Origin: a virus
Lineage: Duplodnaviria; Heunggongvirae; Uroviricota; Caudoviricetes
Virus record (IMG/VR): IMGVR_UViG_3300046507_000426
DNA length: 43,059 bases
Direction: 5' to 3' (one strand)
This document shows positions 3,674 through 37,049 of the stretch, one piece after another (position 1 is the stretch's first letter; each line of letters starts with the position of its first letter). The notes below the pieces were generated by a model. The model searched no databases. It was not told the DNA's origin and saw only the letters and a list, made by a program, of their open reading frames with translations. The position numbers and the translations under genes were made by a program.

Positions 3674-4276
3674 GTGAATCTAATTTCCAGAAGCGAAGCT
3701 AAGGCTCAGGGTTTGACGAGATATTTTACAAAAGAAGCTTGTAAGAACGGCCATATTTCAGAGCGTTTCGTAAACAACGGGTATTGTTGTATTTGTAAAA
3801 AAGAAACTAGACATAAACCTGAAGTAAGAGAAAAAGAACGTTTGCAATGTATAGAGTGGAAAAAGGGTAACGTTGAAAAAGTTAGTCAATACAATAAAGA
3901 TTGGCTCACTATAAACGGGGATAAAAGACGAACTAAGCGTAGAATCATATATGCTTCTAATCCTGACTTTTTTAGATCTATTTCTAAAAATTGGTCAAAA
4001 CAAAATCGAAGTAAAGTGTATCTAAGTAACGCTAGTAGACGGGCCACAAAACTTCGGGCTACCCCTACTTGGGTTGATTTAAAAGCAATGGAAGCATTTT
4101 ACGCAAAATCTGTAAAACTCTCTGAAGAAACAGGTATTACTCACCATGTAGATCATATAGTGCCTTTACAAAATGAAATAGTCTGCGGTTTACATAATCA
4201 ATTCAATTTACAAGTATTAACAGCTACGGAAAATATTTCTAAAGGCAATAGATTTTGGCCAGATATGCCGAACTGA
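3674..4276 (+). CDS. Free-standing HNH endonuclease
   Basis: C-terminal HVDHIVPLQ...CGLHNQFNLQVLTATENISKGN HNH motif; N-terminal CKNGH...CCIC zinc-binding segment; GTG start; visibly AT-rich. Confidence 0.9.
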   Translation: MNLISRSEAKAQGLTRYFTKEACKNGHISERFVNNGYCCICKKETRHKPEVREKERLQCIEWKKGNVEKVSQYNKDWLTINGDKRRTKRRIIYASNPDFFRSISKNWSKQNRSKVYLSNASRRATKLRATPTWVDLKAMEAFYAKSVKLSEETGITHHVDHIVPLQNEIVCGLHNQFNLQVLTATENISKGNRFWPDMPN

Positions 4277-4370: not shown

Positions 4371-4400
4371 AAAAAGCCCCTCGTAAAACAGGGGCTTTTT
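4371..4400. terminator. Bidirectional intrinsic terminator between convergent HNH and ThiF/E1 genes
   Basis: aaaaagcccct-cgtaaaac-aggggcttttt: perfect stem with A and T tracts. Confidence 0.9.
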
Positions 4401-4409
4401 CATTGCTAT

Positions 4410-5645
4410 TTACAAAGAGCGAAATGCGGTAGATTCTTGACCGACTTCTTCACTGAGAGCAAAGGTTTCATCCAATGCTGTCTCTTCTTCTGTCTCGGGA
4501 TTTACAGGCGCTACTTGTGCGGCCCATTGGTTGAACCGACCCGTAGTAGTCGTAGGTTCAGACTTTTTAGCACGAGGCTTTCTCTTCGGAGCTTCAACCA
4601 CAACTTCAGGATTCACGGCCTGGTTAGCTGCAAGAGCCGCCTGAGCATCACGAAGCTGAATCATCTCGTTGTTACGAAGCAAGAACGAGTCGAACAAATT
4701 CTCTGCAGAAACCATAGCGCAACTTCCAACAAATCCTCTGTTTACTCCATTGCTGATTGAAGAGTGATATGAAGCCGACGGTTGAACAATCTTGTTGCGA
4801 TAGTTCGTAATCGTGTTCTTCGTATACGTCGTCGAACCACTCCCGATATCAATCGAAATTTCGTTGTAATCCACGATCTTGTTGTAGTAGTAATTCTGCA
4901 CAAACGACAGAATCAGCATAGCCATCAACGAATTGATTGCCAAGGTCTGATCCAGGTCAGCGCAACTACCAAGGCCGGGATTGTCCTGAAGGCTTTCATA
5001 GAACTCATGGTCGTACGGCAAGTATTCGACCGGTTCCGGAAGAAATTCGATACGCTCAGGTACACGATACTTTGCACGAAGCTCACCCTCTTGATACACC
5101 TTGTTGGAAATCAAGATGTGATTCGTAAACATCCGAACCTGACCAAATGCGTCTTCGTTCCCCGCATCAATGAACAACGTAGTCTTGTTGTAGTTAAGCG
5201 GAGCCAAGGCTTTGAGAACCGTGCGACGAGCCTCTGCGCTATCCACACACATGATAACCAGGTCGTTCGAAGTATTCTCGATCGTTATCCCAGCGGTGTT
5301 AACCAAGTCAGCACGGAACGTCGACGGTGTCATCGCCTTATCGATAAACTTCGGATAGGCCACGACATTCATGTCGTAAGCCTTGCCATATCGCATCGCA
5401 AGAACCGAGGCCTTGTTCTTGTTCACATCGTTTGCGATGAAGTTCTGACGAAGCAGATTCTTCTGTTCAACAATATCACCGTCAATCAGAACGATGTTCG
5501 TCGAAGGCAACCATCCAGTCGGATTATGCTCTTTCGTGATCGAACGGATAAACTGAACGAGGGTCGGAATTAGGCGGGAACCGGTTCCTCCGCAACCTAC
5601 GACGAAAATGTTGGTAGGAATAGTAGGCGGGCGAAATTTAAACAT
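4410..5645 (-). CDS. ThiF/E1-family ubiquitin-like activating enzyme (PRTRC-ThiF type) with disordered C-terminal tail
   Basis: VVGCGGTGS nucleotide-binding loop, DGDIVEQKNLLRQNF, NKA, CVDSAEARR, DAGN, and GSCAD...Q.L.IN candidate catalytic Cys segment. Confidence 0.92.
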   Translation of the reverse strand: MFKFRPPTIPTNIFVVGCGGTGSRLIPTLVQFIRSITKEHNPTGWLPSTNIVLIDGDIVEQKNLLRQNFIANDVNKNKASVLAMRYGKAYDMNVVAYPKFIDKAMTPSTFRADLVNTAGITIENTSNDLVIMCVDSAEARRTVLKALAPLNYNKTTLFIDAGNEDAFGQVRMFTNHILISNKVYQEGELRAKYRVPERIEFLPEPVEYLPYDHEFYESLQDNPGLGSCADLDQTLAINSLMAMLILSFVQNYYYNKIVDYNEISIDIGSGSTTYTKNTITNYRNKIVQPSASYHSSISNGVNRGFVGSCAMVSAENLFDSFLLRNNEMIQLRDAQAALAANQAVNPEVVVEAPKRKPRAKKSEPTTTTGRFNQWAAQVAPVNPETEEETALDETFALSEEVGQESTAFRSL

Positions 5646-5706
5646 GTTTACTCCTGGTTAAAAAGCTAGACGAATGGTCTTGTTTAAGGACGTGGTGGTC
5701 CGTTAC

Positions 5707-5721
5707 TATTCTTATACCAAA
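5707..5721 (-). promoter_or_regulatory. Candidate promoter -10 element TTTGGTATAAGAATA upstream of E1
   Basis: 15-bp exact match to 10668-10682; shares TTGGTATAA core with 9901-9917 and 9973-9989; overlaps stop codon of the zinc-finger ORF. Confidence 0.6.
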
Positions 5722-5945
5722 GAATTCGAATTCAATGGCCGAGGCCCAGTAGGTTCACCGATTATAACAATGCCCTTACTCGCAGCTTCTGCAGCATCAA
5801 GTTGAGCAAGGAAATTGGCCTTAGCGACTTTTTCAAGTTCGGGACTTGACGTCATGCATTTAAAACAGATCAACGCCCCGTTATGTCCATACGGACGGAC
5901 GTCAAATTCTTCGTGAAAGTCTTTGCAGTAGTGACAGAGTTTCAT
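5712..5945 (-). CDS. Small C4 zinc-finger protein (treble-clef/ClpX-ZBD-like spacing)
   Basis: CHYC-x19-CFKC; start overlaps stop of upstream ORF (TAATG). Confidence 0.65.
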   Translation of the reverse strand: MKLCHYCKDFHEEFDVRPYGHNGALICFKCMTSSPELEKVAKANFLAQLDAAEAASKGIVIIGEPTGPRPLNSNSLV

Positions 5946-6145
5946 TAAAAATCCCTAGTAAGGTTTAAAACCTTATCTTTCAAGAGTTGCAAATCTCTTT
6001 CTGCATCAATCCGTTTTCTCTTTTCATGGATTGCTGCATCACTCCACGTGTCAAATCCGTCAGGGCCTTTGGCTTCGCTTCGAAGTTTCCAGATTTCTCC
6101 CCATAGACGGATTGGGTTGGATTCGTTAGGGTCTAGAGGTTCCAT
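5945..6145 (-). CDS. Small hypothetical protein with C-terminal coiled-coil-like helix
   Basis: 66-aa ORF with purine-rich RBS-like sequence, coupled to downstream ORF. Confidence 0.55.
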   Translation of the reverse strand: MEPLDPNESNPIRLWGEIWKLRSEAKGPDGFDTWSDAAIHEKRKRIDAERDLQLLKDKVLNLTRDF

Positions 6146-6158
6146 AGTTTGTCTCTCT

Positions 6159-6190
6159 AAAAAAAGAAGCGCTCGGTTAAGAGCGCCTCT
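6159..6190 (-). terminator. Intrinsic terminator downstream of JAB gene
   Basis: Minus strand agaggcgctc-ttaacc-gagcgcttct followed by T7. Confidence 0.8.
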
Positions 6191-6194
6191 CGGG

Positions 6195-7574
6195 TTAGTG
6201 AATACCGTTCATCTGGATACGTTCTTGAACTTCATCAGGGAGTTCCTGATAGAGTCGTTTGAACAAGGTTTCCATAGCAGGACCATCAGAAGCCATATGC
6301 AACATATCGGCCATAATGGTTTCTACCAACTCATCCTTACCACTGAGATTAGCCATGATGTCATCAATCAGACAGAATGCTTCTGCAGTGTCGTGACCAT
6401 GTTGAGCATGGACTTCATCGTAACGATCATCGCCTGCATACATGCTCATGCCGGGCCCATCTAGATAAGTCTGATTACGGATCTCTCCAGTAGCCTGATC
6501 GACGTCAGGATCGAACGCAGGATTATACCCAGCATTGCCCGTGTAAGCAGGGGGAAGATGCGACTCGTCATAGCTCGGATCTTCGAACGCACGAGCCAAC
6601 GCACGCTCTGCATATGCAAGCCTTTCATCCTCGCCATTCGGAGTCAGATTCCAGGCATCGTCGGGATGACTCAGTGCGGGGTTTTGGGCCATCCCCCAGA
6701 AATCACCCTGCCAGTCGATATCACGCCCGTCCCAGGATTCGCCGGGAAGTAACCCCCGTTGGTTCTGGAGATGAGGACCAGCTCTATTGCCTTCCTTTTC
6801 TCCGCTTCCCGCGTCTCCCTTTTTGTATTGCCACGGCTTCAAGTGTTCCGCTTTTCCCTTTGTGCTGTTCCCTCCATACACAGTAACCGGAGGCGTATAC
6901 GTATTGATTTTTGCAACCCAATCAGCAGGGACCGCTGCCTCAGGACGAGCCGGGAGTTCGAACACATCATCCAGTTCGCACTCGATCTTCTTGTCACGAT
7001 AGTTAAAGCGCCAAACCGTTTGCGGATTGGTACTCTTCAGATGTCCGACAACGCCTGAGAAACCGATGTTATTTTGATCATCACGATTATCCGTGCCACT
7101 GAAGAACGCACCCATCGTATTGTGACTATGAATATCACAGACGATAGTCTTGCCCGTCGGAAGCGACGACCAGTCATACGAAGCCGAAGCTTTCGATACA
7201 CGTTGATCCGGAACGATCAAGTGATAGCCACTTTCAGCGTCCCAACAAATCCAGATCATCGCCTCAACTTCAGACTTCTTGACTTCCATGACCTGTTTGA
7301 AAAACGCAACAACCTGGTCAAACAGTTCAATTGGGATCTTACCGTCAGGCAGAAAGTTGATTTCCTGAGAAATACGAGTCGTTTTATAGTTGTCCGGGAG
7401 CTTGTCAACTGCCAGACGAACATAACGATTCTGACCACGAAGCTTATGGTGCTTCAGAATCGGGGATTCCTTCGAACCGGTCATAACATAGATTTCGTTA
7501 TAGCCCGCTTCCATTGCAGCCGGAAGTTCGTTCGGGGTTACAACACAGCTGATGAATTGAGTAATGATGTCCAT
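6195..7574 (-). CDS. JAB/MPN+ metalloprotease (Prok-JAB, PRTRC protein A type) with long acidic C-terminal extension
   Basis: Upstream Glu (EVEAM) and DIHSHNTMGAFFSGTDNRDD JAMM motif (HxH-x7-S-xx-D); AGGAG RBS. Confidence 0.92.
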   Translation of the reverse strand: MDIITQFISCVVTPNELPAAMEAGYNEIYVMTGSKESPILKHHKLRGQNRYVRLAVDKLPDNYKTTRISQEINFLPDGKIPIELFDQVVAFFKQVMEVKKSEVEAMIWICWDAESGYHLIVPDQRVSKASASYDWSSLPTGKTIVCDIHSHNTMGAFFSGTDNRDDQNNIGFSGVVGHLKSTNPQTVWRFNYRDKKIECELDDVFELPARPEAAVPADWVAKINTYTPPVTVYGGNSTKGKAEHLKPWQYKKGDAGSGEKEGNRAGPHLQNQRGLLPGESWDGRDIDWQGDFWGMAQNPALSHPDDAWNLTPNGEDERLAYAERALARAFEDPSYDESHLPPAYTGNAGYNPAFDPDVDQATGEIRNQTYLDGPGMSMYAGDDRYDEVHAQHGHDTAEAFCLIDDIMANLSGKDELVETIMADMLHMASDGPAMETLFKRLYQELPDEVQERIQMNGIH

Positions 7575-7600
7575 CTAAAACTCTCCTGGAGTTGTTTTAC

Positions 7601-8365
7601 TTAAACGGCTTTGAAGCCGCGAAGTGATTCGTAGGGGAAAGGCTTATTGTCTTTTGCTGCATCAGCGAGTTTCTTGAACCAGGCTTCAATAGAAGGCTCA
7701 CCAGAAACTGCACGAAGACCCAGGTCATTGTTGAACGGGGATTCAAACAGGAACTGATAATACCAATCCAAGCCACGCAGGTTATTTTCCGTGAACTGTG
7801 TAGGCATTGAGTTGCCACCGTAGCACATGTTCCCTTCCGAATAAGTATTCGGGAACGGCGACAGATAGATATGCTTGTTACCGTCTACACCCCAGATGAA
7901 GGTCTTAGGCAAGTTACCTACTTTGGCATTCGTCGCATAGTATCTCGACCCAGTTGATTTCCACGTTTTCGAATTGTGGCGAGTCAGCTGATGACTGATA
8001 ATGAAGTTAGGCGCACGCACCGTGTACTTCTTATTCATGTGACGCATGTCAGCCACACGCTCAGCATAATAACAACTCAGTTGAATCGTGGTACTCGACT
8101 TTGCGAAATAGAAACAGTTCGACGGAAGCTGGAAGCCTTCCATCTGTTCCTCATTACGGTGATTGACAACTGCACCGATAATCGCATTAAAGTCTTCGTA
8201 CGAGACTCGCTTTTCGACTTGGCTCTTTTCATCGCCGACCATGAATGCTACGCAATCTTCGAGAAGAATAACGTGATGGCCTAGTACATCCACAAGTCGC
8301 TCTTGAGGCTTCAAAATTTCTTTAGCCACGGGAGCTTCTACAGCTTCGATAACAATATCTGTCAT
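7601..8365 (-). CDS. Prokaryotic E2-like conjugating enzyme (Prok-E2_D / PRTRC protein B type)
   Basis: IYLSPFPNTYSEGNMCYG (candidate catalytic Cys), LFESPFNNDL and terminal FPYESL motifs; context next to JAB and E1. Confidence 0.85.
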   Translation of the reverse strand: MTDIVIEAVEAPVAKEILKPQERLVDVLGHHVILLEDCVAFMVGDEKSQVEKRVSYEDFNAIIGAVVNHRNEEQMEGFQLPSNCFYFAKSSTTIQLSCYYAERVADMRHMNKKYTVRAPNFIISHQLTRHNSKTWKSTGSRYYATNAKVGNLPKTFIWGVDGNKHIYLSPFPNTYSEGNMCYGGNSMPTQFTENNLRGLDWYYQFLFESPFNNDLGLRAVSGEPSIEAWFKKLADAAKDNKPFPYESLRGFKAV

Positions 8366-8616
8366 ACAAAATCCTCTTCAGTATCTGTAACTGCGTGTTT
8401 GGCTTTAACTACCTGAACCTCGATATTTTTGAGATTCGCTTTGGTTCTGCGTACAGTTTCAACCTGGAACACTTGAACACAGGCCCTACTCAATAATTCG
8501 AGATCGGAATGAGTTTTAGGAATATCCACATCGTTGAATCTATTTACTGCTGCATAAACTTCAGAAGCCAAATCAGGTAGTTTCGACGCTTCCGACATTA
8601 AACGCTGAAGTATCAT
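8362..8616 (-). CDS. Small hypothetical protein translationally coupled to E2
   Basis: 84-aa ORF whose TGA overlaps the E2 ATG (ATGA); start could be the Met at 8598. Confidence 0.55.
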   Translation of the reverse strand: MILQRLMSEASKLPDLASEVYAAVNRFNDVDIPKTHSDLELLSRACVQVFQVETVRRTKANLKNIEVQVVKAKHAVTDTEEDFV

Positions 8617-9487
8617 ATTGTACCCGTCGTGTAAAAGTGGTAATCACCTTGATCATTTCGTCAAGGACTGTAAAGATCTTTTCAGATGTACTATATCGCT
8701 CAAGACCTGGATAATACTCAACCCTAGAACGACTGGTAAGAGGAGAAGCAGTCCACCTATCAGGATCTTTGAAACGTCTTATCGTTGTTTCATCACCCTC
8801 TTTGATAATGTGTTTCTGATATTCTTCATACGAAGTAATACTCAATTCTGGTGCAGAAGTGACAATTGCAGCGTAATTGGCAAATTGATAAATCACCAAC
8901 TCCGCTTTAACTGTAGAAACCGCTTTTACTCTAAAAGTAGCCTCACCGCTTCTTGTCTTCCACCAGGTTTCATACGCCGCTTCATCTTCCGGATGAATAG
9001 AAAACTCAAATCCCGGAGACAGGCTAATAGGGATACCGTTCTTAATAGCCTTATAGCGCAAGAATCTACAATACCGCTCTATACTTTTTTTCCATTTGAG
9101 ACTATCTGACGCAACGTCCGCAAAAGAAGGCTCAAGTCTACTAACAGTTACTGGAAAATATGGAGATTCCAGTTTGATACCTATCCCGTTAGGTCTATTA
9201 CTCAACGGGAACAGAAACTGTTCACCGCCACGAATATACTCAAGGTAAGGAATCTGTTTCTTAACATGCTTATAGAGAATCTCTTTAAGCTTCTGTACAG
9301 ATTTACGCTGCGCTCCTGAACGACTGCCGCTGATATCGAATTCGTAGTTAAACGTCTTCGTTGAGAGTCGCTTATCCAGGATCTGCTGCGTACAAAACTT
9401 CGAAAGTTTATTCGATGCATCTGTTCTCATCTTTATGATGAGCGATGACAGATCTGATACGTTCTGAGGTAATTTGAATTTTCGCAT
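8573..9487 (-). CDS. Hypothetical basic protein of the Ubl island
   Basis: 304-aa ORF, AGGA RBS 5 nt upstream, overlaps downstream ORF; no motif recognised. Confidence 0.7.
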   Translation of the reverse strand: MRKFKLPQNVSDLSSLIIKMRTDASNKLSKFCTQQILDKRLSTKTFNYEFDISGSRSGAQRKSVQKLKEILYKHVKKQIPYLEYIRGGEQFLFPLSNRPNGIGIKLESPYFPVTVSRLEPSFADVASDSLKWKKSIERYCRFLRYKAIKNGIPISLSPGFEFSIHPEDEAAYETWWKTRSGEATFRVKAVSTVKAELVIYQFANYAAIVTSAPELSITSYEEYQKHIIKEGDETTIRRFKDPDRWTASPLTSRSRVEYYPGLERYSTSEKIFTVLDEMIKVITTFTRRVQYDTSAFNVGSVETT

Positions 9488-9502
9488 ATCTATCCTGTTG
9501 TA

Positions 9503-9587
9503 TTCCTGTTTTTCTTAAGCTCCTAGCTTGACTAAAAAAAACAGGAAAAACGAACAGCAAAGCTAGGAGAGAACCTTGCTGTTCGTT
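9503..9587 (-). promoter_or_regulatory. Interlocked RNA structure: terminator-like hairpin with alternative pairings (candidate attenuator)
   Basis: Perfect complementary pairs 9503-9513/9537-9547 (11 bp), 9520-9529/9560-9569 (10 bp), 9549-9560/9576-9587 (12 bp); U-rich run follows the 12-bp hairpin on the minus strand. Confidence 0.7.
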
Positions 9588-9623
9588 CTGCTTACACAGA
9601 CTAAAGAATTAGTCTATGCGTGC

Positions 9624-9833
9624 TTAGCCCTTCGTGCCGGTACGCGGCTTGAAGGTGATTTCGCGGGCTTCGCCGCCATCGATGCTGATAACACGTTCGT
9701 CAGCTTGCATGCTGCCGATACCCGAGATATCGCCTGCGTAGTTCGTACGAACGAAGTCAACGCTACGGTCACCCGGAATGGTGTATTCGGTATCGGTCGA
9801 AGCAACAACGATGATGGTCTTGATAACTGCCAT
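9624..9833 (-). CDS. Ubiquitin-like (beta-grasp) modifier, Prok_Ub / PRTRC protein C type
   Basis: 69 aa, ends FKPRTGTKG-stop, matching the GTKG C-terminus typical of this family; AAGGA RBS; own tandem promoters; same island as E1/E2/JAB. Confidence 0.85.
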   Translation of the reverse strand: MAVIKTIIVVASTDTEYTIPGDRSVDFVRTNYAGDISGIGSMQADERVISIDGGEAREITFKPRTGTKG

Positions 9834-9900: not shown

Positions 9901-9936
9901 CAATATAGTTATACCAAACATTTCAAAATTATTGAA
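9901..9936 (-). promoter_or_regulatory. Sigma70-like promoter P1 for Ubl gene
   Basis: TTCAAT-N17-TATAAC with TGG immediately before the -10; 17-bp block identical to P2. Confidence 0.8.
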
Positions 9937-9972
9937 AATGTAATGGTTAATAAAAGCTATTCTTAGCCTTTA

Positions 9973-10008
9973 CAATATAGTTATACCAATGGACATAAAA
10001 ATATTGAA
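9973..10008 (-). promoter_or_regulatory. Sigma70-like promoter P2 for Ubl gene
   Basis: TTCAAT-N17-TATAAC; caatatagttataccaa repeated exactly 72 bp from P1. Confidence 0.8.
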
Positions 10009-10103: not shown

Positions 10104-10595
10104 TTAATAGGCAAGTTCAACCGACTTCATCTTATAGGAGTATCCTCCGCACATCGCCTTGGTAAGAATTTCGGCAATTTCATCAAAGGTAGCTCCCATA
10201 TCATTCAGACCGGTAAGAGCCAGTTGCTTTATGTTCATTGTGGCCTTAGCGCCATCCGGAAACTGCCCACCTACGTAAATGCCAAGCGGTCCCATGCCGC
10301 CATACATTCTTCGGATTGTGGGCAGCACATATTCCTGTGTGCTCATGATTTCGCCTTTCTCCACGGGGAAACTGTATCCGAAACCCCCGTCGTGCTCAAT
10401 CCATCCCTCCTTGGAGATCAAATCACATGCAACACCCATACAACAGTACGTATCACCTTTCCTCAGGATACCTTTTGCCTGACGATAGGCCCCAGACTTC
10501 AAAGCTGCTATCCAGTTCTTCCACCTTTGTCTCTGGATCTCGGTCAAAGGTACATCGGGAATTTCACGGATTACAGCGCCGCATTGTAGTATCAT
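10104..10595 (-). CDS. Hypothetical phage protein
   Basis: 163 aa; W..ALKSGAYRQ...L....CCMGVACDL motif of a kind I recall from phage hypotheticals; preceded by promoter motif. Confidence 0.7.
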   Translation of the reverse strand: MILQCGAVIREIPDVPLTEIQRQRWKNWIAALKSGAYRQAKGILRKGDTYCCMGVACDLISKEGWIEHDGGFGYSFPVEKGEIMSTQEYVLPTIRRMYGGMGPLGIYVGGQFPDGAKATMNIKQLALTGLNDMGATFDEIAEILTKAMCGGYSYKMKSVELAY

Positions 10596-10667
10596 AGGTA
10601 CGCCTCATTATGTAAGTATAAAACAACTAGCGTAGGACAAAAATCAAAAAGCCATATTGTTCTACAT

Positions 10668-10682
10668 TATTCTTATACCAAA
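10668..10682 (-). promoter_or_regulatory. Candidate promoter -10 element TTTGGTATAAGAATA at the right edge of the island
   Basis: Identical 15-mer to 5707-5721; back-to-back with terminase start. Confidence 0.6.
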
Positions 10683-10703: not shown

Positions 10704-12317
10704 ATGGAATTAAACAAACTACTTAGACTAAAACCATCTGAAATTTCAAAAGCTTTGCTAACGCTGAAGGGTAAGCCGTTAAACCTCGACGACTACAAAC
10801 CTTTTGAAATTATCTATGACATTGCCCCGAATGAGATGACTCTCATGGCGGGACGTCAGATTGGTAAATCAGTGTCCCTTGGGGCAGCTATCGTAGCTAA
10901 CAGCCTTGTTAGAGGACACTTTTCGACCTTGTTCAGTAGCCCATTGGCTCAACAAACCTCGCGGTTCTCTACAGCGTATCTGGATCCGTTCCTAAGTTCA
11001 CCTTTGATCCGTAGACACTTCACAGATCCATCAACACGTAAGAACGTTTTCTCTAAGTCCTTCACTAATGGAAGCTCTGTTACTCTCGGTTACGCCGAAA
11101 CAGAACAAGATGCCGACCGTATTCGTGGGGTGTTTGCGGATGCGCTCTACCTGGACGAATTCCAGGACACAAGTATCGAATGTGCCCCTATTCTCGCAGA
11201 AACGTTGGGCGCTTCTGACTTTGCTTTCAGACGTTATACTGGCACTGCCAAGACTGAAACTAATTCGCTTACGCAAAAATTCAAGCAAGGCAATATGATG
11301 GAGTGGGCTGTGCAATGCCCGAAGTGTAAAAAATACTCATTGCCGCTTGACTTTGACGTTTGCCACAGAATGCTGACTATCAACCCTGAAGGGCCTGGTT
11401 GTTTGTTTTGCGGCGGAGTACTGGACATGAAGACCGGTAAGTGGGTGGCTGCACGTCCGATGGAAAAAGATCATCTATCATTCCATCTCCCTCAAATAAT
11501 TTTCCCGGCTCGTACTAAGCCTAAGAAGTGGAAAGAGTTATTGCATAAAGCAAAGACGTATTCGATACCTAAACTTGCTAACGAAGTGTTTGGATGCCCA
11601 AGCGGTCTCGCCGGTCGTCCTCTTTCACTTAAGGAAGTAATGTCATGCTGTAACAATACTAAGACAGAGTGGGATAAGAGTTTTCCAGTTGATAAGCGAA
11701 ACATCCTTCATACAGTGCTTGGTGTTGACTGGTCTGTAAGCGGAGGTTCTAACTCGTACACAGTTATTACTGTTCTTGGTTATGACTGGAATGGCAAATG
11801 CTACCTCCTTTATTCGCAACGTTTGAACGGTATTGATATTCTGGATCAAGTTAAACGCGTTGAGCAACTATATTCGCAATACAAATGCACGATGCTTGCA
11901 TCTGATCGTGGCGTCGGTCAGCTTCAGGTTGAACTGATGAGAAAAAGTATTGGCGATGATCGTGTAAATTCGATACAATATGTTGCAGCAAAGAATACTC
12001 TACGTTGGGACAAGGATGGTCGGTTCTTTTCAGCAGATAGAACTACCAATATGGATACGATGGTGCTTAAGGCTAAACTAGGTCGTGAACGCATCGAAAC
12101 ACCTTGTTGGAATCTGATGTCTGAGTTCTGGCAGGATGCACTAAACATCTACGAAGAAGAATCTGTGACTGGACGACGTCTTTATAAAAAAGACGAAGAC
12201 TTATGTGATGACTGGTTTCATAGCATCGTGTTTGCCAATATTGCATACATGGTATTGAAAGGTGAATTCCTGACAGTCGACGAAGTGAAGAATGAAAAAG
12301 ATGTGTTTGACTTTTAA
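10704..12317 (+). CDS. terL: Terminase large subunit
   Basis: Walker A MAGRQIGKS, Walker B LYLDEFQD, motif III YTGT, CPKC/CLFC zinc finger, RNase H-like LGVDW ... DDWFHS. Confidence 0.93.
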   Translation: MELNKLLRLKPSEISKALLTLKGKPLNLDDYKPFEIIYDIAPNEMTLMAGRQIGKSVSLGAAIVANSLVRGHFSTLFSSPLAQQTSRFSTAYLDPFLSSPLIRRHFTDPSTRKNVFSKSFTNGSSVTLGYAETEQDADRIRGVFADALYLDEFQDTSIECAPILAETLGASDFAFRRYTGTAKTETNSLTQKFKQGNMMEWAVQCPKCKKYSLPLDFDVCHRMLTINPEGPGCLFCGGVLDMKTGKWVAARPMEKDHLSFHLPQIIFPARTKPKKWKELLHKAKTYSIPKLANEVFGCPSGLAGRPLSLKEVMSCCNNTKTEWDKSFPVDKRNILHTVLGVDWSVSGGSNSYTVITVLGYDWNGKCYLLYSQRLNGIDILDQVKRVEQLYSQYKCTMLASDRGVGQLQVELMRKSIGDDRVNSIQYVAAKNTLRWDKDGRFFSADRTTNMDTMVLKAKLGRERIETPCWNLMSEFWQDALNIYEEESVTGRRLYKKDEDLCDDWFHSIVFANIAYMVLKGEFLTVDEVKNEKDVFDF

Positions 12318-22244: not shown

Positions 22245-22460
22245 ATGACAACGACAAACACAGATGGATTCGCAGCCCTTGGGGAAACTAAGGGCGGTTT
22301 GCCAAGAAGCGTTAACATCCCTACGAATATCTCAAGTATGTTATCTGGGACTTCGTGGGCAGATGACGTGTTCGTATACCAGAAATTTGCTGAGAAGTTG
22401 CAGGCATATCTTGTTGGTTATGTAAATGCAATCTACTCGGATCATAACGTATATCTATAA
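22245..22460 (+). CDS. Small hypothetical protein
   Basis: 71-aa ORF with AAGGAG upstream, coupled to sigma gene. Confidence 0.55.
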   Translation: MTTTNTDGFAALGETKGGLPRSVNIPTNISSMLSGTSWADDVFVYQKFAEKLQAYLVGYVNAIYSDHNVYL

Positions 22461-23176
22461 TGACTGAAGAAACTACAAAACCAGAATTTATCGACTATCG
22501 GTCAAAAGACCGGGAGTTGTTTGACAAATGGAAAGAGACCGGCAGTAAACGGGATCTTGGTAATTTGATGCATCAACTCTCAGGGGTTATTTATCAGGAA
22601 GTCAATAGACAGTCTGGAAGTCTACCCAATGCTGCGCTTAGTGCAGAGGCTAAAACTTGGGCTATCAAAGCCATCAATACGTATGATCCTAGTAAAGGGA
22701 CTCAGCTGTCTACGCACGTAACTAATTATCTCCAACGTGTACGTCGCCTAAATTACAAGTATCAGAACGCAGTTAGACTTCCTGAAAATATGCAGCTTAT
22801 GTATAGGGATTGGAATTCGGCTAATCAGGAATTGTCCGATCAGCTTAACCGTGATCCTACTGAAGAAGAACTCGCTAAGCATTTAGGTTGGACAAAGCCT
22901 CAAGTTATTAAATATAGAAACTCTCTGTACTCGGATCTCGTTGAATCAGCTTCGGATAAACCAGCTGAATTTACTCAGTACAATGAAAGCGCAGAACTTA
23001 TGGCCTATCTCATGAGTCAACTGACGCCTGATGAAAAATTTATTCTTGACAACGTTAAACTGATGCCTGCCCCGCAAATCGCTGCAAAGCTTGGTGTTAA
23101 CATCAATCGATATAACTATATCAAGACGCAACTTAAGAACAAAATCGAAAAAATTAAGCAGGATATTGGACTCTAA
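22460..23176 (+). CDS. Sigma-70-family RNA polymerase sigma factor (group 3/FliA-like, likely late)
   Basis: Region 2 AINTYDPSKGTQLSTH...VRLP, region 3 LNRDPTEEELAKHLGW, region 4 HTH QIAAKLGV. Confidence 0.85.
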   Translation: MTEETTKPEFIDYRSKDRELFDKWKETGSKRDLGNLMHQLSGVIYQEVNRQSGSLPNAALSAEAKTWAIKAINTYDPSKGTQLSTHVTNYLQRVRRLNYKYQNAVRLPENMQLMYRDWNSANQELSDQLNRDPTEEELAKHLGWTKPQVIKYRNSLYSDLVESASDKPAEFTQYNESAELMAYLMSQLTPDEKFILDNVKLMPAPQIAAKLGVNINRYNYIKTQLKNKIEKIKQDIGL

Positions 23177-28773: not shown

Positions 28774-29279
28774 CAGATTTTTTGAAACGAATTTTTAAAG
28801 GCTTGAAGTTCCGTAACACTATGGAACTCGAAGGGGTTCTTAAGGCAGAGCTAGTATACCCAGATGGACGCAGGGAACTCGCTTTTGAAGAAAAAAATCT
28901 TATCGTGCTAACGGCCAAGCAAGTTCTTTTGAGTAGTTTGTACGTTGCTAATCAACTTTCAGATCCTATTATCAATTTGAACATTGGCACTGGCGGATGT
29001 ATTGACCCTCAAGGTCTCTTCCCGAAGCCTATTAGCCAAGCTATGACTTCGCTGTTCACTCCGCTACTGAGTGTTCCTACTTCATTTACGATTAATAGCG
29101 CTGCACCCTCAGTTACGTTTATCGCCGATGTGGACCAGGGTACAGCTAATGGACAGCTCATTACTGAAGCAGGGCTTTTCAAGGCAAGTGGGAATATGTT
29201 TAACATCAAGACGTTTCCTGGTATTCCAAAAACGTCTGAATTTTCCATACATTTTGAATGGACCATACAAATGTCATGA
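28770..29279 (+). CDS. Baseplate/tail-fibre attachment (tail-collar-like) protein
   Basis: NLIV..AK, IGTG, ITEAGLF motifs; ATGA overlap with upstream gene. Confidence 0.55.
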   Translation: MTDFLKRIFKGLKFRNTMELEGVLKAELVYPDGRRELAFEEKNLIVLTAKQVLLSSLYVANQLSDPIINLNIGTGGCIDPQGLFPKPISQAMTSLFTPLLSVPTSFTINSAAPSVTFIADVDQGTANGQLITEAGLFKASGNMFNIKTFPGIPKTSEFSIHFEWTIQMS

Positions 29280-29804
29280 TTTAACGCGAGGTTTGTATTT
29301 CCCCCTAGGACCTCTGGCTGCTACAGAAGCGGCCATTTTTTCACTAGGATTATACTTTCCCCGCTTAGCTCTAGGTGGTGCGTCAGCGTGATATTTCTTT
29401 GCAGATTCTGACATTTTTGCTCTTTGTTCAGCTGGTATAGTTTTGCCCTTTTGAGCCTTAGACATATTTAGCCTAGCCTGATCGGAAACCACTCTTCCTT
29501 TCATAGACTCCGAGTGTCGTTTTCTAAGCCATGCAAAAGACTTGTTATTGTTTCTGTATCCAAAGGGGTTTACTGACATAGCTATTGCTGCTTTAATAAG
29601 CCCTGATTCTTCTGGGTAAATTTTTACAAGCAATTGGTGGGCTAGATAGTGTTCTTCTGCAGTAAGTTTTACAAGATTTTCATCGTTGTTTGTACCGCCC
29701 AGACACCGAGGTAAGATATGATGAACTTCGAAATAGATGTCTTCTCCTAGATTTCTGGTGGAAGCCTTTAAAATCAAAGTATCGTAGATAAGTTTGTAAT
29801 TCAT
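29274..29804 (-). CDS. Free-standing HNH endonuclease with NUMOD3-like DNA-binding tail, antisense to structural operon
   Basis: EVHHILPRCLGGTNNDENLVKLTAEEHYLAHQLL; VSDQARLNMSKAQKGK...EQRAKMSES repeats. Confidence 0.9.
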   Translation of the reverse strand: MNYKLIYDTLILKASTRNLGEDIYFEVHHILPRCLGGTNNDENLVKLTAEEHYLAHQLLVKIYPEESGLIKAAIAMSVNPFGYRNNNKSFAWLRKRHSESMKGRVVSDQARLNMSKAQKGKTIPAEQRAKMSESAKKYHADAPPRAKRGKYNPSEKMAASVAARGPRGKYKPRVKS

Positions 29805-36599: not shown

Positions 36600-37049
36600 A
36601 TGAGAGAAGGTCTACCCCTTGTCAAAGAATTTGAAGGTTGCAAGCTCGTTGCGTATCAGGACATCGTTGGCGTCTGGACGATTGGCTACGGTGAAACGTT
36701 GTGGCTGAACAGTTCTGGTCAACGTGTAAAAGTTTGGCCAGGCTTGACTATTACCCAAGCTCAAGCCGATGCAGATGTTGCAGGACGCTACGATGAGTTC
36801 GAAGCTAAAATCAAGGCTCTAATTAAAGTCCCAGTCACGTCTAATCAACTTGGAGCATTGGTAAGCTTTGCATATAACTTGGGCGAAGCTAGTCTAGCTG
36901 GATCCACACTATTAAAATTACTTAATGCAGGTGCTTCTCCTGCTACTGTCGCAGTTCAGTTTCCACGTTGGAACAAGGCTGGCGGCAAAGTTGTCGACGG
37001 ACTTACACGTCGTAGAAATGCAGAAGCTGGACTATTTTTAACAAAGTAA
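36600..37049 (+). CDS. Endolysin, GH24 phage lysozyme
   Basis: KEFEG...AYQD..GVWTIGYGET (E-D-T triad), ALVSFAYNLG, FPRWNKAGG...GL.RRR.AE; no SAR segment. Confidence 0.95.
   Translation: MREGLPLVKEFEGCKLVAYQDIVGVWTIGYGETLWLNSSGQRVKVWPGLTITQAQADADVAGRYDEFEAKIKALIKVPVTSNQLGALVSFAYNLGEASLAGSTLLKLLNAGASPATVAVQFPRWNKAGGKVVDGLTRRRNAEAGLFLTK

What the first reader, a model, noticed from the sequence alone, without database searches (positions are those of the whole stretch)
4410..9833. Phage-encoded complete ubiquitin-like conjugation system (Ubl + E2 + JAB + E1) as a discrete island in the virion gene region
Seen: four co-oriented genes with apparently intact catalytic motifs. These are ThiF/E1 (GxGGxG, NLLRQ, SCAD Cys), E2 (PFPN...GNMCYG), JAB (E...HSH-x7-S-xx-D) and a 69-aa protein ending GTKG. 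The island has its own promoters and terminators and runs opposite to the flanking structural genes. Established: this domain set matches the Prok_Ub/Prok-E2_D/Prok-JAB/ThiF (PRTRC-type) cassettes known mainly from comparative genomics of plasmids and integrative elements. Bacterial E1/E2/JAB systems (Bil, CBASS Cap2/Cap3) act in anti-phage defence by protein conjugation. Here the ParB/ParM partners of PRTRC cassettes are absent and the carrier is a virion-forming phage with lysis genes. Inference: the phage runs its own protein-tagging pathway, to modify or inactivate host proteins such as defence factors, to regulate its own proteins, or to decoy or reverse host Ubl defences. I cannot check whether homologous phage cassettes have already been characterised.
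Basis: partly seen in the sequence, partly recalled or inferred. Interest (0 to 1): 0.92.

Follow-up and report, generated by a model that had tools for sequence, protein, structure and literature searches.

The report
Phage core ubiquitin-like tagging cassette
A clade of large lytic phages, including cultured Salmonella and Vibrio phages, carries next to its DNA-packaging gene a complete, selectively maintained kit for attaching a small ubiquitin-like protein to other proteins; what it tags is unknown, no paper I could search has studied it, and it can now be tested.

Summary
On the minus strand at 4410-9833 lie a 69-aa beta-grasp protein ending in GTKG-stop, two unknown proteins (304 and 84 aa), a Prok-E2_D E2 with an invariant Cys, a JAB/JAMM peptidase and a ThiF-type E1. 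All catalytic motifs are intact and all genes are under purifying selection.

It is not a mobile island. The cassette sits between the large terminase and a structural gene in 31 of 32 related viral contigs with enough flank (TerL identity 45% or more), including Salmonella phage Arash and Vibrio phages D69/D181/D148. A sister phage (TerL 39%) has an empty site. In several relatives the tag gene is a head-to-tail repeat of 2 to 5 units, each ending in GTKG, like polyubiquitin. This gives the JAB peptidase a clear processing role.

The cassette is a very divergent relative of PRTRC (operon type 6d of Iyer et al. 2006). It falls below every PRTRC cut-off and has no ParB. I found no functional study of that kind.

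A TTGGTATAA motif and conserved terminators make the tag gene its own highly expressed unit.

This scan already reported the same clade's cassette on two other genomes (e1-5324481, e1-5359353). My results agree with both.

The parts
10665..10681 (-). Promoter-like motif copy (TTGGTATAAGAATAATG) ahead of the 163-aa gene
   Evidence: The same 17-mer precedes a ThyX operon elsewhere in the genome.
10104..10595 (-). 163-aa co-oriented neighbour (phrog_18067 / DUF8296-type). Not part of the core cassette.
   Evidence: PHROG hit at 3.3e-16. It is present only in the closer relatives. A terminator-like GC hairpin with a T-run follows it (sequence read).
9901..9989 (-). Two exact copies of TTGGTATAACTATATTG (9973-9989 and 9901-9917) upstream of the tag gene
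   Evidence: TGGTATAA lies 67-300 nt upstream of the tag gene in 9 of 9 relatives checked.
9624..9833 (-). Ubiquitin-like tag: 69 aa, made in finished form and ending TGTKG-stop
   Evidence: AF2 model with pLDDT 90.7 and a beta-grasp fold. AFDB fold hits include 'PRTRC system protein C' and ubiquitin-like domains. The GxKG end is nearly invariant across the clade. Relatives carry poly-tag forms.
9547..9589 (-). Strong hairpin (18 pairs) plus a T-run just after the tag gene: terminator or attenuator
   Evidence: A GC hairpin followed by TTTTTTTTAGT is kept at this position in all 9 relatives checked.
8573..9487 (-). 304-aa conserved partner of unknown fold; the fastest-evolving cassette gene
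   Evidence: No family hit. Only 10 homologues, at 40-59% identity. The AF2 model (pLDDT 70.6, mixed alpha/beta) has no fold match. dN/dS is 0.16-0.19.
8362..8616 (-). 84-aa partner. Its start overlaps the end of the 304-aa gene and its stop overlaps the E2 start codon.
   Evidence: kept in 17 ORFs, about 14 distinct phage loci. dN/dS is 0.24 against L003.
7601..8365 (-). E2-like conjugating enzyme (Prok-E2_D); candidate catalytic Cys181 in PFPN-x7-C
   Evidence: dN/dS is 0.02-0.06.
6195..7574 (-). JAB/JAMM metallopeptidase (E, HSH, S, D) with an N-terminal domain and a long C-terminal extension
   Evidence: dN/dS is 0.03-0.12.
6164..6191 (-). Terminator-like hairpin plus T-run directly after the JAB gene
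5712..6145 (-). Two small accessory genes: 66 aa at 5945-6145, and 77 aa at 5712-5945 (CxxC...CxxC, phrog_18256). They occur only in the closest relatives.
5712..5720 (-). Fourth TTGGTATAA copy, about 70 nt upstream of the E1 start
4410..5645 (-). ThiF-type E1 with GCGGTG, R66, D135 and candidate catalytic Cys228 in SCADL; variable C-terminal tail
   Evidence: dN/dS is 0.14-0.15.
4371..4400 (.). Two-way terminator (A-run, GC hairpin, T-run) between E1 and the convergent HNH gene

Best explanation
This is a working, phage-encoded ubiquitin-like (Ubl) protein conjugation pathway. It is a fixed core module of a clade of roughly 170-190-kb lytic phages.

Proposed mechanism:
1. The 69-aa beta-grasp tag is transcribed from its own TTGGTATAA-type promoters. 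A conserved terminator or attenuator lets only part of the transcription run on into the enzyme genes, so the tag is made in excess.
2. The ThiF-type E1 adenylates the tag's C-terminal Gly69 and probably takes it as a thioester on Cys228.
3. The tag passes to Cys181 of the E2.
4. The E2 puts it on lysines of target proteins, probably helped by the fast-evolving 304-aa and 84-aa partners acting as specificity factors.
5. The JAB peptidase cuts after GTKG. In relatives with 2-5 head-to-tail tag units or short C-terminal caps it must release the units. Here, where the tag is already finished, it most likely removes the tag from conjugates.

My best guess for the target class is host proteins or phage non-structural proteins, tagged early or in mid infection as part of host takeover.

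Shown here: gene content, motifs, fold, synteny, selection and regulatory motifs. Inferred: every chemical step and the target.
For: - All four enzyme and tag classes are present with intact, clade-invariant catalytic residues.
- The E2 Asn-to-Cys spacing of 8 residues (N173 to C181) equals that of the canonical HPN...C motif; the canonical spacing is from my own knowledge.
- The tag model is a confident beta-grasp (pLDDT 90.7). Its fold hits include PRTRC protein C and ubiquitin-like domains.
- The GxKG-stop end is nearly invariant. Bacterial relatives share it, ending ...RAGTKG-stop.
- Relatives carry poly-tag genes: 2 units in L011, L013 and L035, 3 in Vibrio phage D69, 5 in L030 and L034. 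Each unit ends TGTKG and is followed directly by the next, with 1-5-residue caps at the end. This only makes sense if a peptidase releases free C-terminal Gly for activation.
- All genes are under purifying selection, with dN/dS 0.02-0.24 for the enzymes and partners.
- The cassette is present in 31 of 32 TerL-ascertained loci with enough flank, over TerL divergence down to 45%.
- The Arash homologues of E1 and E2 were seen as proteins by mass spectrometry (PMC10585845).
- E1(1-290) plus tag co-fold gave weak support only. The score was 0.43 and the best of 3 controls 0.00. The pass mark was reached by 58 of 80 solved complexes and 2 of 110 mismatched pairs, but at 0.60 or under by only 7 of those 80 and by both mismatches. 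The runs agree in at least 89% of contacts and the partner's pLDDT is at least 85. E1-Ubl complexes are solved, so the pass may come from memory.
- For early or middle timing: the cassette runs opposite to the late genes, and TTGGTATAA occurs 4 times in the window, only inside the cassette. The same 17-mer precedes a ThyX operon.
Against: - No biochemical data exist for any member of this or the PRTRC family.
- The tag has no sequence-family hit. Its PDB fold matches are weak (best E 0.036).
- The E2 lacks the downstream His that Iyer et al. called absolutely conserved in type 6d E2s.
- No E3 is recognisable, and the 304-aa partner matches no known fold.
- Against a host-directed role: universal, syntenic conservation across phages of different hosts is unusual for arms-race genes. 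The position inside the morphogenesis region, and the detection of cassette proteins in Arash particle preparations, point to a virion role instead.
Confidence: 0.7

Rival explanations
1. The chemistry is the same, but the targets are the phage's own virion or assembly proteins. The tag would be attached to capsid or tail components, or used transiently in assembly in the way lambda's Ubl-like gpI and JAB-containing gpK are.
For: - The cassette is fixed between the large terminase and a structural gene in every clade member.
- It behaves as a core gene set, not an accessory one.
- Arash Table 2 lists Gp246-249 and Gp251 among proteins found in sucrose-gradient particles, and GenBank marks the E1 and E2 homologues as 'structural protein'.
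- There is a precedent in the Ubl-plus-JAB pair of lambdoid tail assembly (PMC1779556).
Against: - The cassette is on the opposite strand from the late genes and shares its promoter-like motif with a nucleotide-metabolism operon.
- The Arash particle proteome lists 116 proteins, including ribonucleotide reductase and RNA ligases. The authors themselves allow for carry-over of abundant proteins.
- The cassette proteins evolve faster than TerL and the structural neighbour.
Confidence: 0.3
2. Counter-defence by interference. The JAB strips host Bil or CBASS conjugates, or the tag and E1 act as decoys, and no phage-directed conjugation takes place.
For: Bacterial Bil and CBASS type II systems use Ubl-type conjugation against phages (PMC11601596, PMC10097602). 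A phage JAB could reverse it.
Against: - This does not explain a complete E1 + E2 + tag set with invariant catalytic Cys residues, or the poly-tag precursors.
- There are no PADLOC hits to Bil or Cap3-type models.
- The cassette is conserved in phages of hosts that mostly lack such systems (that distribution is my own knowledge, not tested here).
Confidence: 0.08
3. The small protein is a sulfur carrier (ThiS/MoaD/TtuB-like). The E1 makes a thiocarboxylate for thiolation of tRNA or a cofactor, in a phage rich in tRNA genes.
For: The E1 is a small ThiF/MoeB-type enzyme.
Against: - The E2 has an invariant Cys, and a JAB and poly-tag precursors are present.
- No rhodanese and no PP-loop ATP_bind_3 enzyme were found in the 107-kb record. 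The record is only about 87% complete.
Confidence: 0.05
4. A partition or maintenance module, as PRTRC is sometimes annotated ('ParB/ThiF partitioning cassette').
For: That annotation is used for PRTRC in a Burkholderia prophage paper (PMC13366799).
Against: No ParB in the record. The carriers are lytic-type phages with no partition genes seen. The annotation itself rests on no experiment.
Confidence: 0.02

Closest known systems
PRTRC system (ParB-Related, ThiF-Related Cassette; NCBIfam TIGR03734-03742), which is operon type 6d of Iyer, Burroughs and Aravind 2006 (PMC1779556)
   Same: - The parts are the same: a small Ubl ending in Gly, an unknown partner, an E2-like Cys protein (Prok-E2_D), a JAB with an N-terminal domain, and a small ThiF-type E1.
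- The best NCBIfam hits of all three enzymes are PRTRC_A, PRTRC_B and PRTRC_ThiF.
- Fold hits of the tag include PRTRC protein C.
- Bacterial relatives share the ...GTKG-stop end and the Ubl-x-x-E2-JAB-E1 order.
   Different: - Every score is far below the curated cut-offs: 26 against 131, 74 against 102, and 87 against 145 bits.
- There is no ParB and no hit to PRTRC C, D, E or F.
- The E2 has no conserved downstream His.
- The carrier is a lytic phage clade in which the cassette is a fixed core module next to the terminase.
- Relatives carry polyubiquitin-style tag genes.
Bil (BilABCD, types I/II; type II is operon type 6C) bacterial anti-phage Ubl conjugation (Chambers 2024, Hor 2024; PMC10557695)
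   Same: Separate Ubl, E2, JAB and E1 genes in one operon. Conjugation to lysines without a recognisable E3. JAB acts as the processing and removal enzyme.
   Different: [quoted passage not shown] Here the E1 is a small single-domain ThiF type.
- There are no PADLOC hits beyond weak matches of the E1 to E1-E2 models.
- Bil is a host defence that tags phage tails. This cassette is carried by the phage.
Eukaryotic polyubiquitin genes
   Same: Head-to-tail tag units, each ending in the activation Gly. There is sometimes a short C-terminal cap that must be trimmed.
   Different: No sequence relationship beyond the beta-grasp fold. The units end TGTKG, not LRGG. The putative processing enzyme is a JAMM peptidase encoded in the same operon. 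The window's own gene is a single finished unit.
Lambdoid and T1-like tail assembly proteins I (Ubl-like) and K (JAB + NlpC/P60) (PMC1779556)
   Same: A phage-encoded Ubl-fold protein with a conserved Gly, paired with a JAB peptidase, in a morphogenesis region.
   Different: That pair has no E1 or E2, so no conjugation is expected. It sits inside the tail operon on the late strand.

Membership tests
PRTRC (NCBIfam TIGR03734-03742) | ThiF-family E1 scoring over the TIGR03736 cut-off | tested here: not met
   87.1 bits against a cut-off of 144.75. It is nevertheless the best-scoring family.
PRTRC (NCBIfam TIGR03734-03742) | PRTRC_A (JAB) and PRTRC_B (E2) over their cut-offs | tested here: not met
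   74.2 bits against 101.8, and 26.2 against 131.45.
PRTRC (NCBIfam TIGR03734-03742) | PRTRC_C Ubl recognisable by the family model | tested here: not met
   No hit in the protein scan or in a six-frame scan of the genome at E up to 1. The only likeness is by fold and the shared GTKG end.
PRTRC (NCBIfam TIGR03734-03742) | ParB-related protein in the cassette | tested here: not met
   No ParB_N match in the 107-kb record. The record is about 87% complete.
PRTRC (NCBIfam TIGR03734-03742) | PRTRC proteins D, E and F | tested here: not met
   The 304-, 84-, 66- and 77-aa proteins have no NCBIfam hit to them.
Operon type 6d (Iyer et al. 2006) | One operon with a Ubl ending in Gly, an uncharacterised partner, an E2-like protein, a JAB and an E1-like protein | tested here: met
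   The partner is predicted to be mixed alpha/beta, not largely helical.
Operon type 6d (Iyer et al. 2006) | E2 with a conserved Cys and an absolutely conserved His downstream of it | tested here: not met
   The Cys is invariant, but there is no conserved His after it. N212 and D214 are invariant in 135 sequences instead.
Ubl conjugation systems in general | Beta-grasp modifier with a free or releasable C-terminal Gly | tested here: met
Ubl conjugation systems in general | E1 adenylation motifs with a Cys, an E2 Cys with a (H)PN-type motif, and the JAMM motif | tested here: met
   Sequence level only.
Ubl conjugation systems in general | ATP-dependent thioester relay and isopeptide conjugates | not testable with these tools
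   Needs biochemistry. The co-fold of E1 with the tag gave weak support only.
Bil (BilABCD) | [quoted passage not shown] | tested here: not met
   The E1 has a single ThiF domain in residues 12-175 plus a variable tail. PADLOC-DB has no hit for the E2, JAB or tag. I did not verify that this PADLOC version holds Bil models.
CBASS type II Cap2/Cap3 | Fused E2-E1 protein next to a CD-NTase and an effector | tested here: not met
   E1 and E2 are separate genes. Only weak E1-domain hits to PADLOC 'E1-E2' models (best 1.4e-7) were found, and there is no CD-NTase in the cassette.
ThiS/MoaD sulfur-carrier systems | Sulfur-transfer partner (rhodanese, PP-loop thiolase) and no E2 | tested here: not met
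   No rhodanese or ATP_bind_3 match in the record. An E2 is present.

The most novel reading that the evidence does not exclude
A whole clade of lytic phages depends on its own ubiquitin-like conjugation pathway as a core step of infection. The pathway has polyubiquitin-style tag genes and fast-evolving specificity subunits. It tags either host proteins, to take over the cell, or its own particle proteins. This would be the first virus-encoded, self-sufficient E1-E2-Ubl-DUB pathway shown to act for a bacteriophage and not against one. It would also give the first function for the 20-year-old, untested PRTRC/6d family.
Probability: 0.4. Interest if true: 0.85.

Novelty: new variant of a known kind. 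Interest (0 to 1): 0.68.

Why it matters
Prokaryotic ubiquitin-like conjugation has so far been shown to work only as bacterial defence against phages (CBASS type II, Bil). The Bub family has been worked out in biochemistry, but its role is unknown. The type 6d/PRTRC family was predicted in 2006 and remains untested in the literature I could search.

Here the same kind of machinery is a fixed, selectively maintained core module of a phage clade that includes culturable phages: Salmonella phage Arash and Vibrio phages D69, D181 and D148. Their published annotations do not recognise it. That makes an open question directly testable with ordinary phage genetics and mass spectrometry: what does a virus of bacteria use protein tagging for?

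The polyubiquitin-style tag genes also show that this gene organisation arose outside eukaryotes, in a viral setting.

Tried and rejected
- Megablast of the cassette against GenBank phages found nothing. Only protein-level searches found Arash and the Vibrio phages.
- PHROGs has no family for the tag, 304-aa, 84-aa, E2, JAB or E1 proteins.
- PADLOC gave only weak E1-domain hits.
- Pfam at E up to 10 on eight tag homologues gave nothing relevant.
- Foldseek of the tag against PDB gave only weak beta-grasp rows, best E 0.036.
- The 304-aa partner matched nothing credible. Its AF2 model has pLDDT 70.6. I tried PDB, AFDB clusters and the ESM Atlas (TM 0.34 or less; a feature score of 0.91 to unnamed clusters).
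- The 34-sequence E2 alignment was too diverse for locus scans, so I used the E1 and TerL alignments instead.
- A PDB sequence search with the E2 profile found no solved relative.
- The JAB gave an unexplained E 4e-4 hit to 9e72 HvrF.
- The sigma-70 consensus scan found 8 sites against 12.1 expected, so it lends no support to host-type promoters.
- Positive selection on the 304-aa partner is rejected. Its dN/dS is 0.16-0.19, and its excess differences from the near-identical phage L002 cluster at residues 203-243 together with raised dS, which looks like a recombination patch.
- The numbering in Arash Table 2 does not match the GenBank 'structural protein' labels one to one, so I do not claim which cassette proteins beyond E1 and E2 were detected.

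Full report
**What is there.** The window is bases 73-43131 of a 107-kb IMG/VR virus record. It belongs to a tailed phage. A large terminase lies at 10704-12317, and there are several tail-fibre genes and an endolysin at 36600-37049.

Between the terminase and a block of plus-strand genes, eight genes run on the minus strand:
- a 69-aa protein (9624-9833)
- a 304-aa protein (8573-9487)
- an 84-aa protein (8362-8616), which overlaps both of its neighbours
- an E2-like protein (7601-8365)
- a JAB peptidase (6195-7574)
- two small genes (5945-6145 and 5712-5945)
- a ThiF-type E1 (4410-5645)

Pfam places the three enzymes above its gathering scores: Prok-E2_D at 2.6e-9, Prok-JAB at 8.3e-9 and ThiF at 3.1e-14.

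**The tag.** The 69-aa protein has no hit in Pfam, NCBIfam, PHROGs or PADLOC. With an alignment of eight homologues, AlphaFold2 gives a confident model with pLDDT 90.7 and strand-strand-helix-strand-strand order. PDB matches are weak but are all beta-grasp proteins: ubiquitin, a bacterial Ubl in an E1-E2-Ubl complex, and protein L/G domains. AFDB cluster matches are better. The top hit has E 6.1e-5 and TM 0.69. Entries named 'PRTRC system protein C' appear at ranks 5 and 29, alongside ubiquitin-like domains. The C-terminal TGTKG-stop is invariant in close homologues and nearly so across the clade.

**The enzymes.**
- E1: G17, G19, G20, R66, D135 and Cys228 (in SCADL) are invariant across 17 E1s.
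- E2: an exhaustive HMMER search found 237 clusters at 50% identity. Across 135 of them P119, N173, C181, G183 and N212 are invariant. The N173-to-C181 spacing of eight residues is that of the HPN...C motif of canonical E2s (canonical spacing from my own knowledge). The downstream His that Iyer et al. describe for type 6d E2s is not conserved.
- JAB: the Glu, HSH, Ser and Asp of the JAMM motif are kept in all orthologues.
- No solved structure is a sequence relative of the E2. The E1 is nearest to small ThiF-fold proteins and to the adenylation domains of UBA7 and NAE.
- A co-fold of E1(1-290) with the tag gave weak support only. The score was 0.43 against 0.00 for the best of three controls. 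The calibration was 58 of 80 true and 2 of 110 false pairs at the mark, but only 7 of 80 true pairs and both false ones at 0.60 or under. The runs agree in at least 89% of contacts and the partner's pLDDT is at least 85. The pass may come from memory of solved E1-Ubl complexes.

**It is a core module, not an island.** A scan of IMG/VR with an E1 alignment gave 30 loci, many on contigs of 170-182 kb. All show the order TerL (opposite strand), tag, about 1.2 kb of fast-evolving genes, E2, JAB, E1, then a convergent structural gene, the 137-aa homologue.

I then ascertained loci through TerL, which does not presuppose the cassette. This gave 71 loci:
- Of the 32 with TerL identity of 45% or more and enough upstream sequence, 31 carry the full set.
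- The 32nd (L145) carries at least the tag gene at the edge of the locus.
- One sister phage (L158, TerL 39%) has the 137-aa gene directly beside TerL, an empty site.
- None of the 25 more distant loci (TerL 31% or less) has the cassette within the flank available, up to 10 kb.

Cultured members are Salmonella phage Arash (gp251c to gp246c) and Vibrio phages D69, D181 and D148, where the genes are annotated as hypothetical or 'structural'. In 185,579 species-representative prokaryote genomes the best E1 relatives are only 30-37% identical. This lineage was therefore not seen as a prophage there.

**Selection.** Against a phage with 91% TerL identity (L003), dN/dS is 0.06 for E2, 0.12 for JAB, 0.15 for E1, 0.19 for the 304-aa protein and 0.24 for the 84-aa protein. 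For TerL it is 0.02. These are real genes under constraint, but they evolve faster than the morphogenesis genes. Protein identities to L003 are TerL 91, Ubl 75, JAB 72, E2 69, E1 62, 84-aa 60 and 304-aa 49.

**Polyubiquitin-style genes.** In relatives the tag gene holds 2 units (L011, L013, L035), 3 units (Vibrio phage D69) or 5 units (L030, L034) joined head to tail. Each unit ends TGTKG and the next follows directly. The last unit sometimes carries 1-5 extra residues. Such precursors need an endopeptidase that cuts after GTKG, and the JAB is the only peptidase in the cassette. In the window the gene is a single unit that ends on the Gly, so here the JAB is more likely a deconjugase.

**Regulation.**
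- TTGGTATAA occurs four times in the 43-kb window against 0.35 expected. All four are on the minus strand and inside the cassette: before the 163-aa gene, twice before the tag gene, and about 70 nt before E1.
- The longer 17-mer occurs five times in the 107-kb record, all on that strand. One copy precedes a ThyX gene.
- TGGTATAA lies upstream of the tag gene in 9 of 9 relatives checked.
- A GC hairpin followed by TTTTTTTTAGT lies just downstream of the tag gene in all nine. In the window this is the 18-pair hairpin at 9589-9547.
- Further hairpins with T-runs follow the JAB gene (6191-6164). A two-way one closes the cassette (4371-4400).
- A sigma-70 consensus scan is not enriched.

My reading is that the tag is a separate, strongly expressed unit, that the enzymes are made by read-through and from a second promoter, and that timing is probably early or middle. 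The timing is an inference from five motif sites.

**Relation to known systems.** The best NCBIfam hits are PRTRC_A, PRTRC_B and PRTRC_ThiF, all far under their cut-offs. There is no ParB in the record and no hit to PRTRC C, D, E or F. Myxococcales and deltaproteobacterial MAG loci have the same order (Ubl, two unknown genes, E2, JAB, E1) and a Ubl ending RAGTKG-stop. They are also below the PRTRC cut-offs. The cassette therefore belongs to the wider type 6d kind of Iyer, Burroughs and Aravind (PMC1779556) but is not a PRTRC member.

The characterised bacterial systems are other types. CBASS type II is 6B, MBL is 6A, Bil type II is 6C and Bub is 6E (PMC11601596, PMC10557695). The 6A and 6B letters rest on my own reading of the table and of the NCBIfam name; 6C and 6E are stated in the papers. 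I found no functional study of 6d/PRTRC.

PRTRC cassettes have been annotated in a Burkholderia gladioli prophage, with the remark that the function has not been studied (PMC13366799). In a Phocaeicola prophage the E2 (protein B) is a recurrent mutation hotspot, which the authors link to a diversity-generating retroelement (bioRxiv 10.64898/2026.10.01.756045).

The Arash paper does not mention ubiquitin or ThiF. It lists Gp246-249 and Gp251 among 116 proteins found in sucrose-gradient particles, a list that also holds ribonucleotide reductases and RNA ligases (PMC10585845). I take that as evidence of expression, not of packaging.

**Function.** The chemistry is well supported by sequence, fold and comparative evidence: E1 to E2 to target, with JAB for release and removal. 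The target is open.
- An early or middle, host-directed or regulatory role is favoured by the strand, the motif shared with a nucleotide-metabolism operon, and the fast-evolving partners.
- A role on particle proteins is favoured by the fixed place in the morphogenesis region, the core status, and the Arash proteome.
- Sulfur transfer is unlikely. An E2 and poly-tag genes are present, and no rhodanese or PP-loop enzyme was found in the record.

**Standing in this scan.** The scan holds more than 200 notes on phage PRTRC-like cassettes. It has two follow-ups on this same clade from other genomes, with the same main conclusions. My tests were run independently of them and agree.

Noticed in passing
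L004:9144-9419 (also L019, L020 and L021): In four relatives the JAB gene is split exactly inside the catalytic motif (DIH | SHNTM) by about 340 nt or more. In L004 the insert matches the Rfam group I intron RF00028 over the full model (29.1 bits, E 1.9e-5, below the gathering score).
   Followed up: partly
L008:3403-4062: In a distant cassette a LAGLIDADG-type gene (faint Pfam hit) sits between the JAB and the next gene. With the HNH gene beside the window's cassette, this suggests the region is a frequent landing site for homing elements.
   Followed up: no
window 3674-4276 (+): An HNH/endonuclease VII-like gene (phrog_26577 at 1.8e-28, phrog_1035 at 5.3e-18) lies beside the E1 end. In L004 and L021 its homologue lies on the other side of the cassette, next to TerL, and many relatives lack it.
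   Followed up: partly
window 8573-9487 (-), residues 203-243: Against phage L002, whose TerL and 137-aa proteins are 100% identical, the 304-aa protein has 27 differences. Of these, 18 fall in residues 203-243, with raised dS (0.295). This looks like a recombination patch.
   Followed up: partly
window 4410-5645 (-), residues 357-407: All 14 E1 differences from L002 lie in the C-terminal tail. The tail is variable in length and sequence across the clade, and its role is unknown.
   Followed up: no
L006:5950-6201 (Vibrio phage D69, OZ195729): The annotated E1 starts at the equivalent of residue 82. The GCGGTGS nucleotide-binding part is open in frame upstream but has no ATG, GTG or TTG. The cause is probably a mis-called start or a rare start codon.
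   Followed up: partly
window 9624-9833 (-): The tag gene has much lower synonymous divergence from L003 (dS 0.45) than its neighbours (dS 1.4-3.5). This suggests constraint at the nucleotide level, from codon use for high expression or from RNA structure.
   Followed up: no
window 6195-7574 (-), residues 108-221: The JAB region gives an unexpected PDB sequence hit to 9e72 'HvrF methyltransferase' (E 4e-4). The same entry appeared among the weak fold rows for the 304-aa protein.
   Followed up: no
window 22460-23176 (+) and 29274-29804 (-): A sigma-factor-like gene (phrog_351, 9.6e-15) lies among the virion genes. A homing endonuclease (phrog_655, 1.9e-52) lies on the opposite strand inside the structural block.
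   Followed up: no
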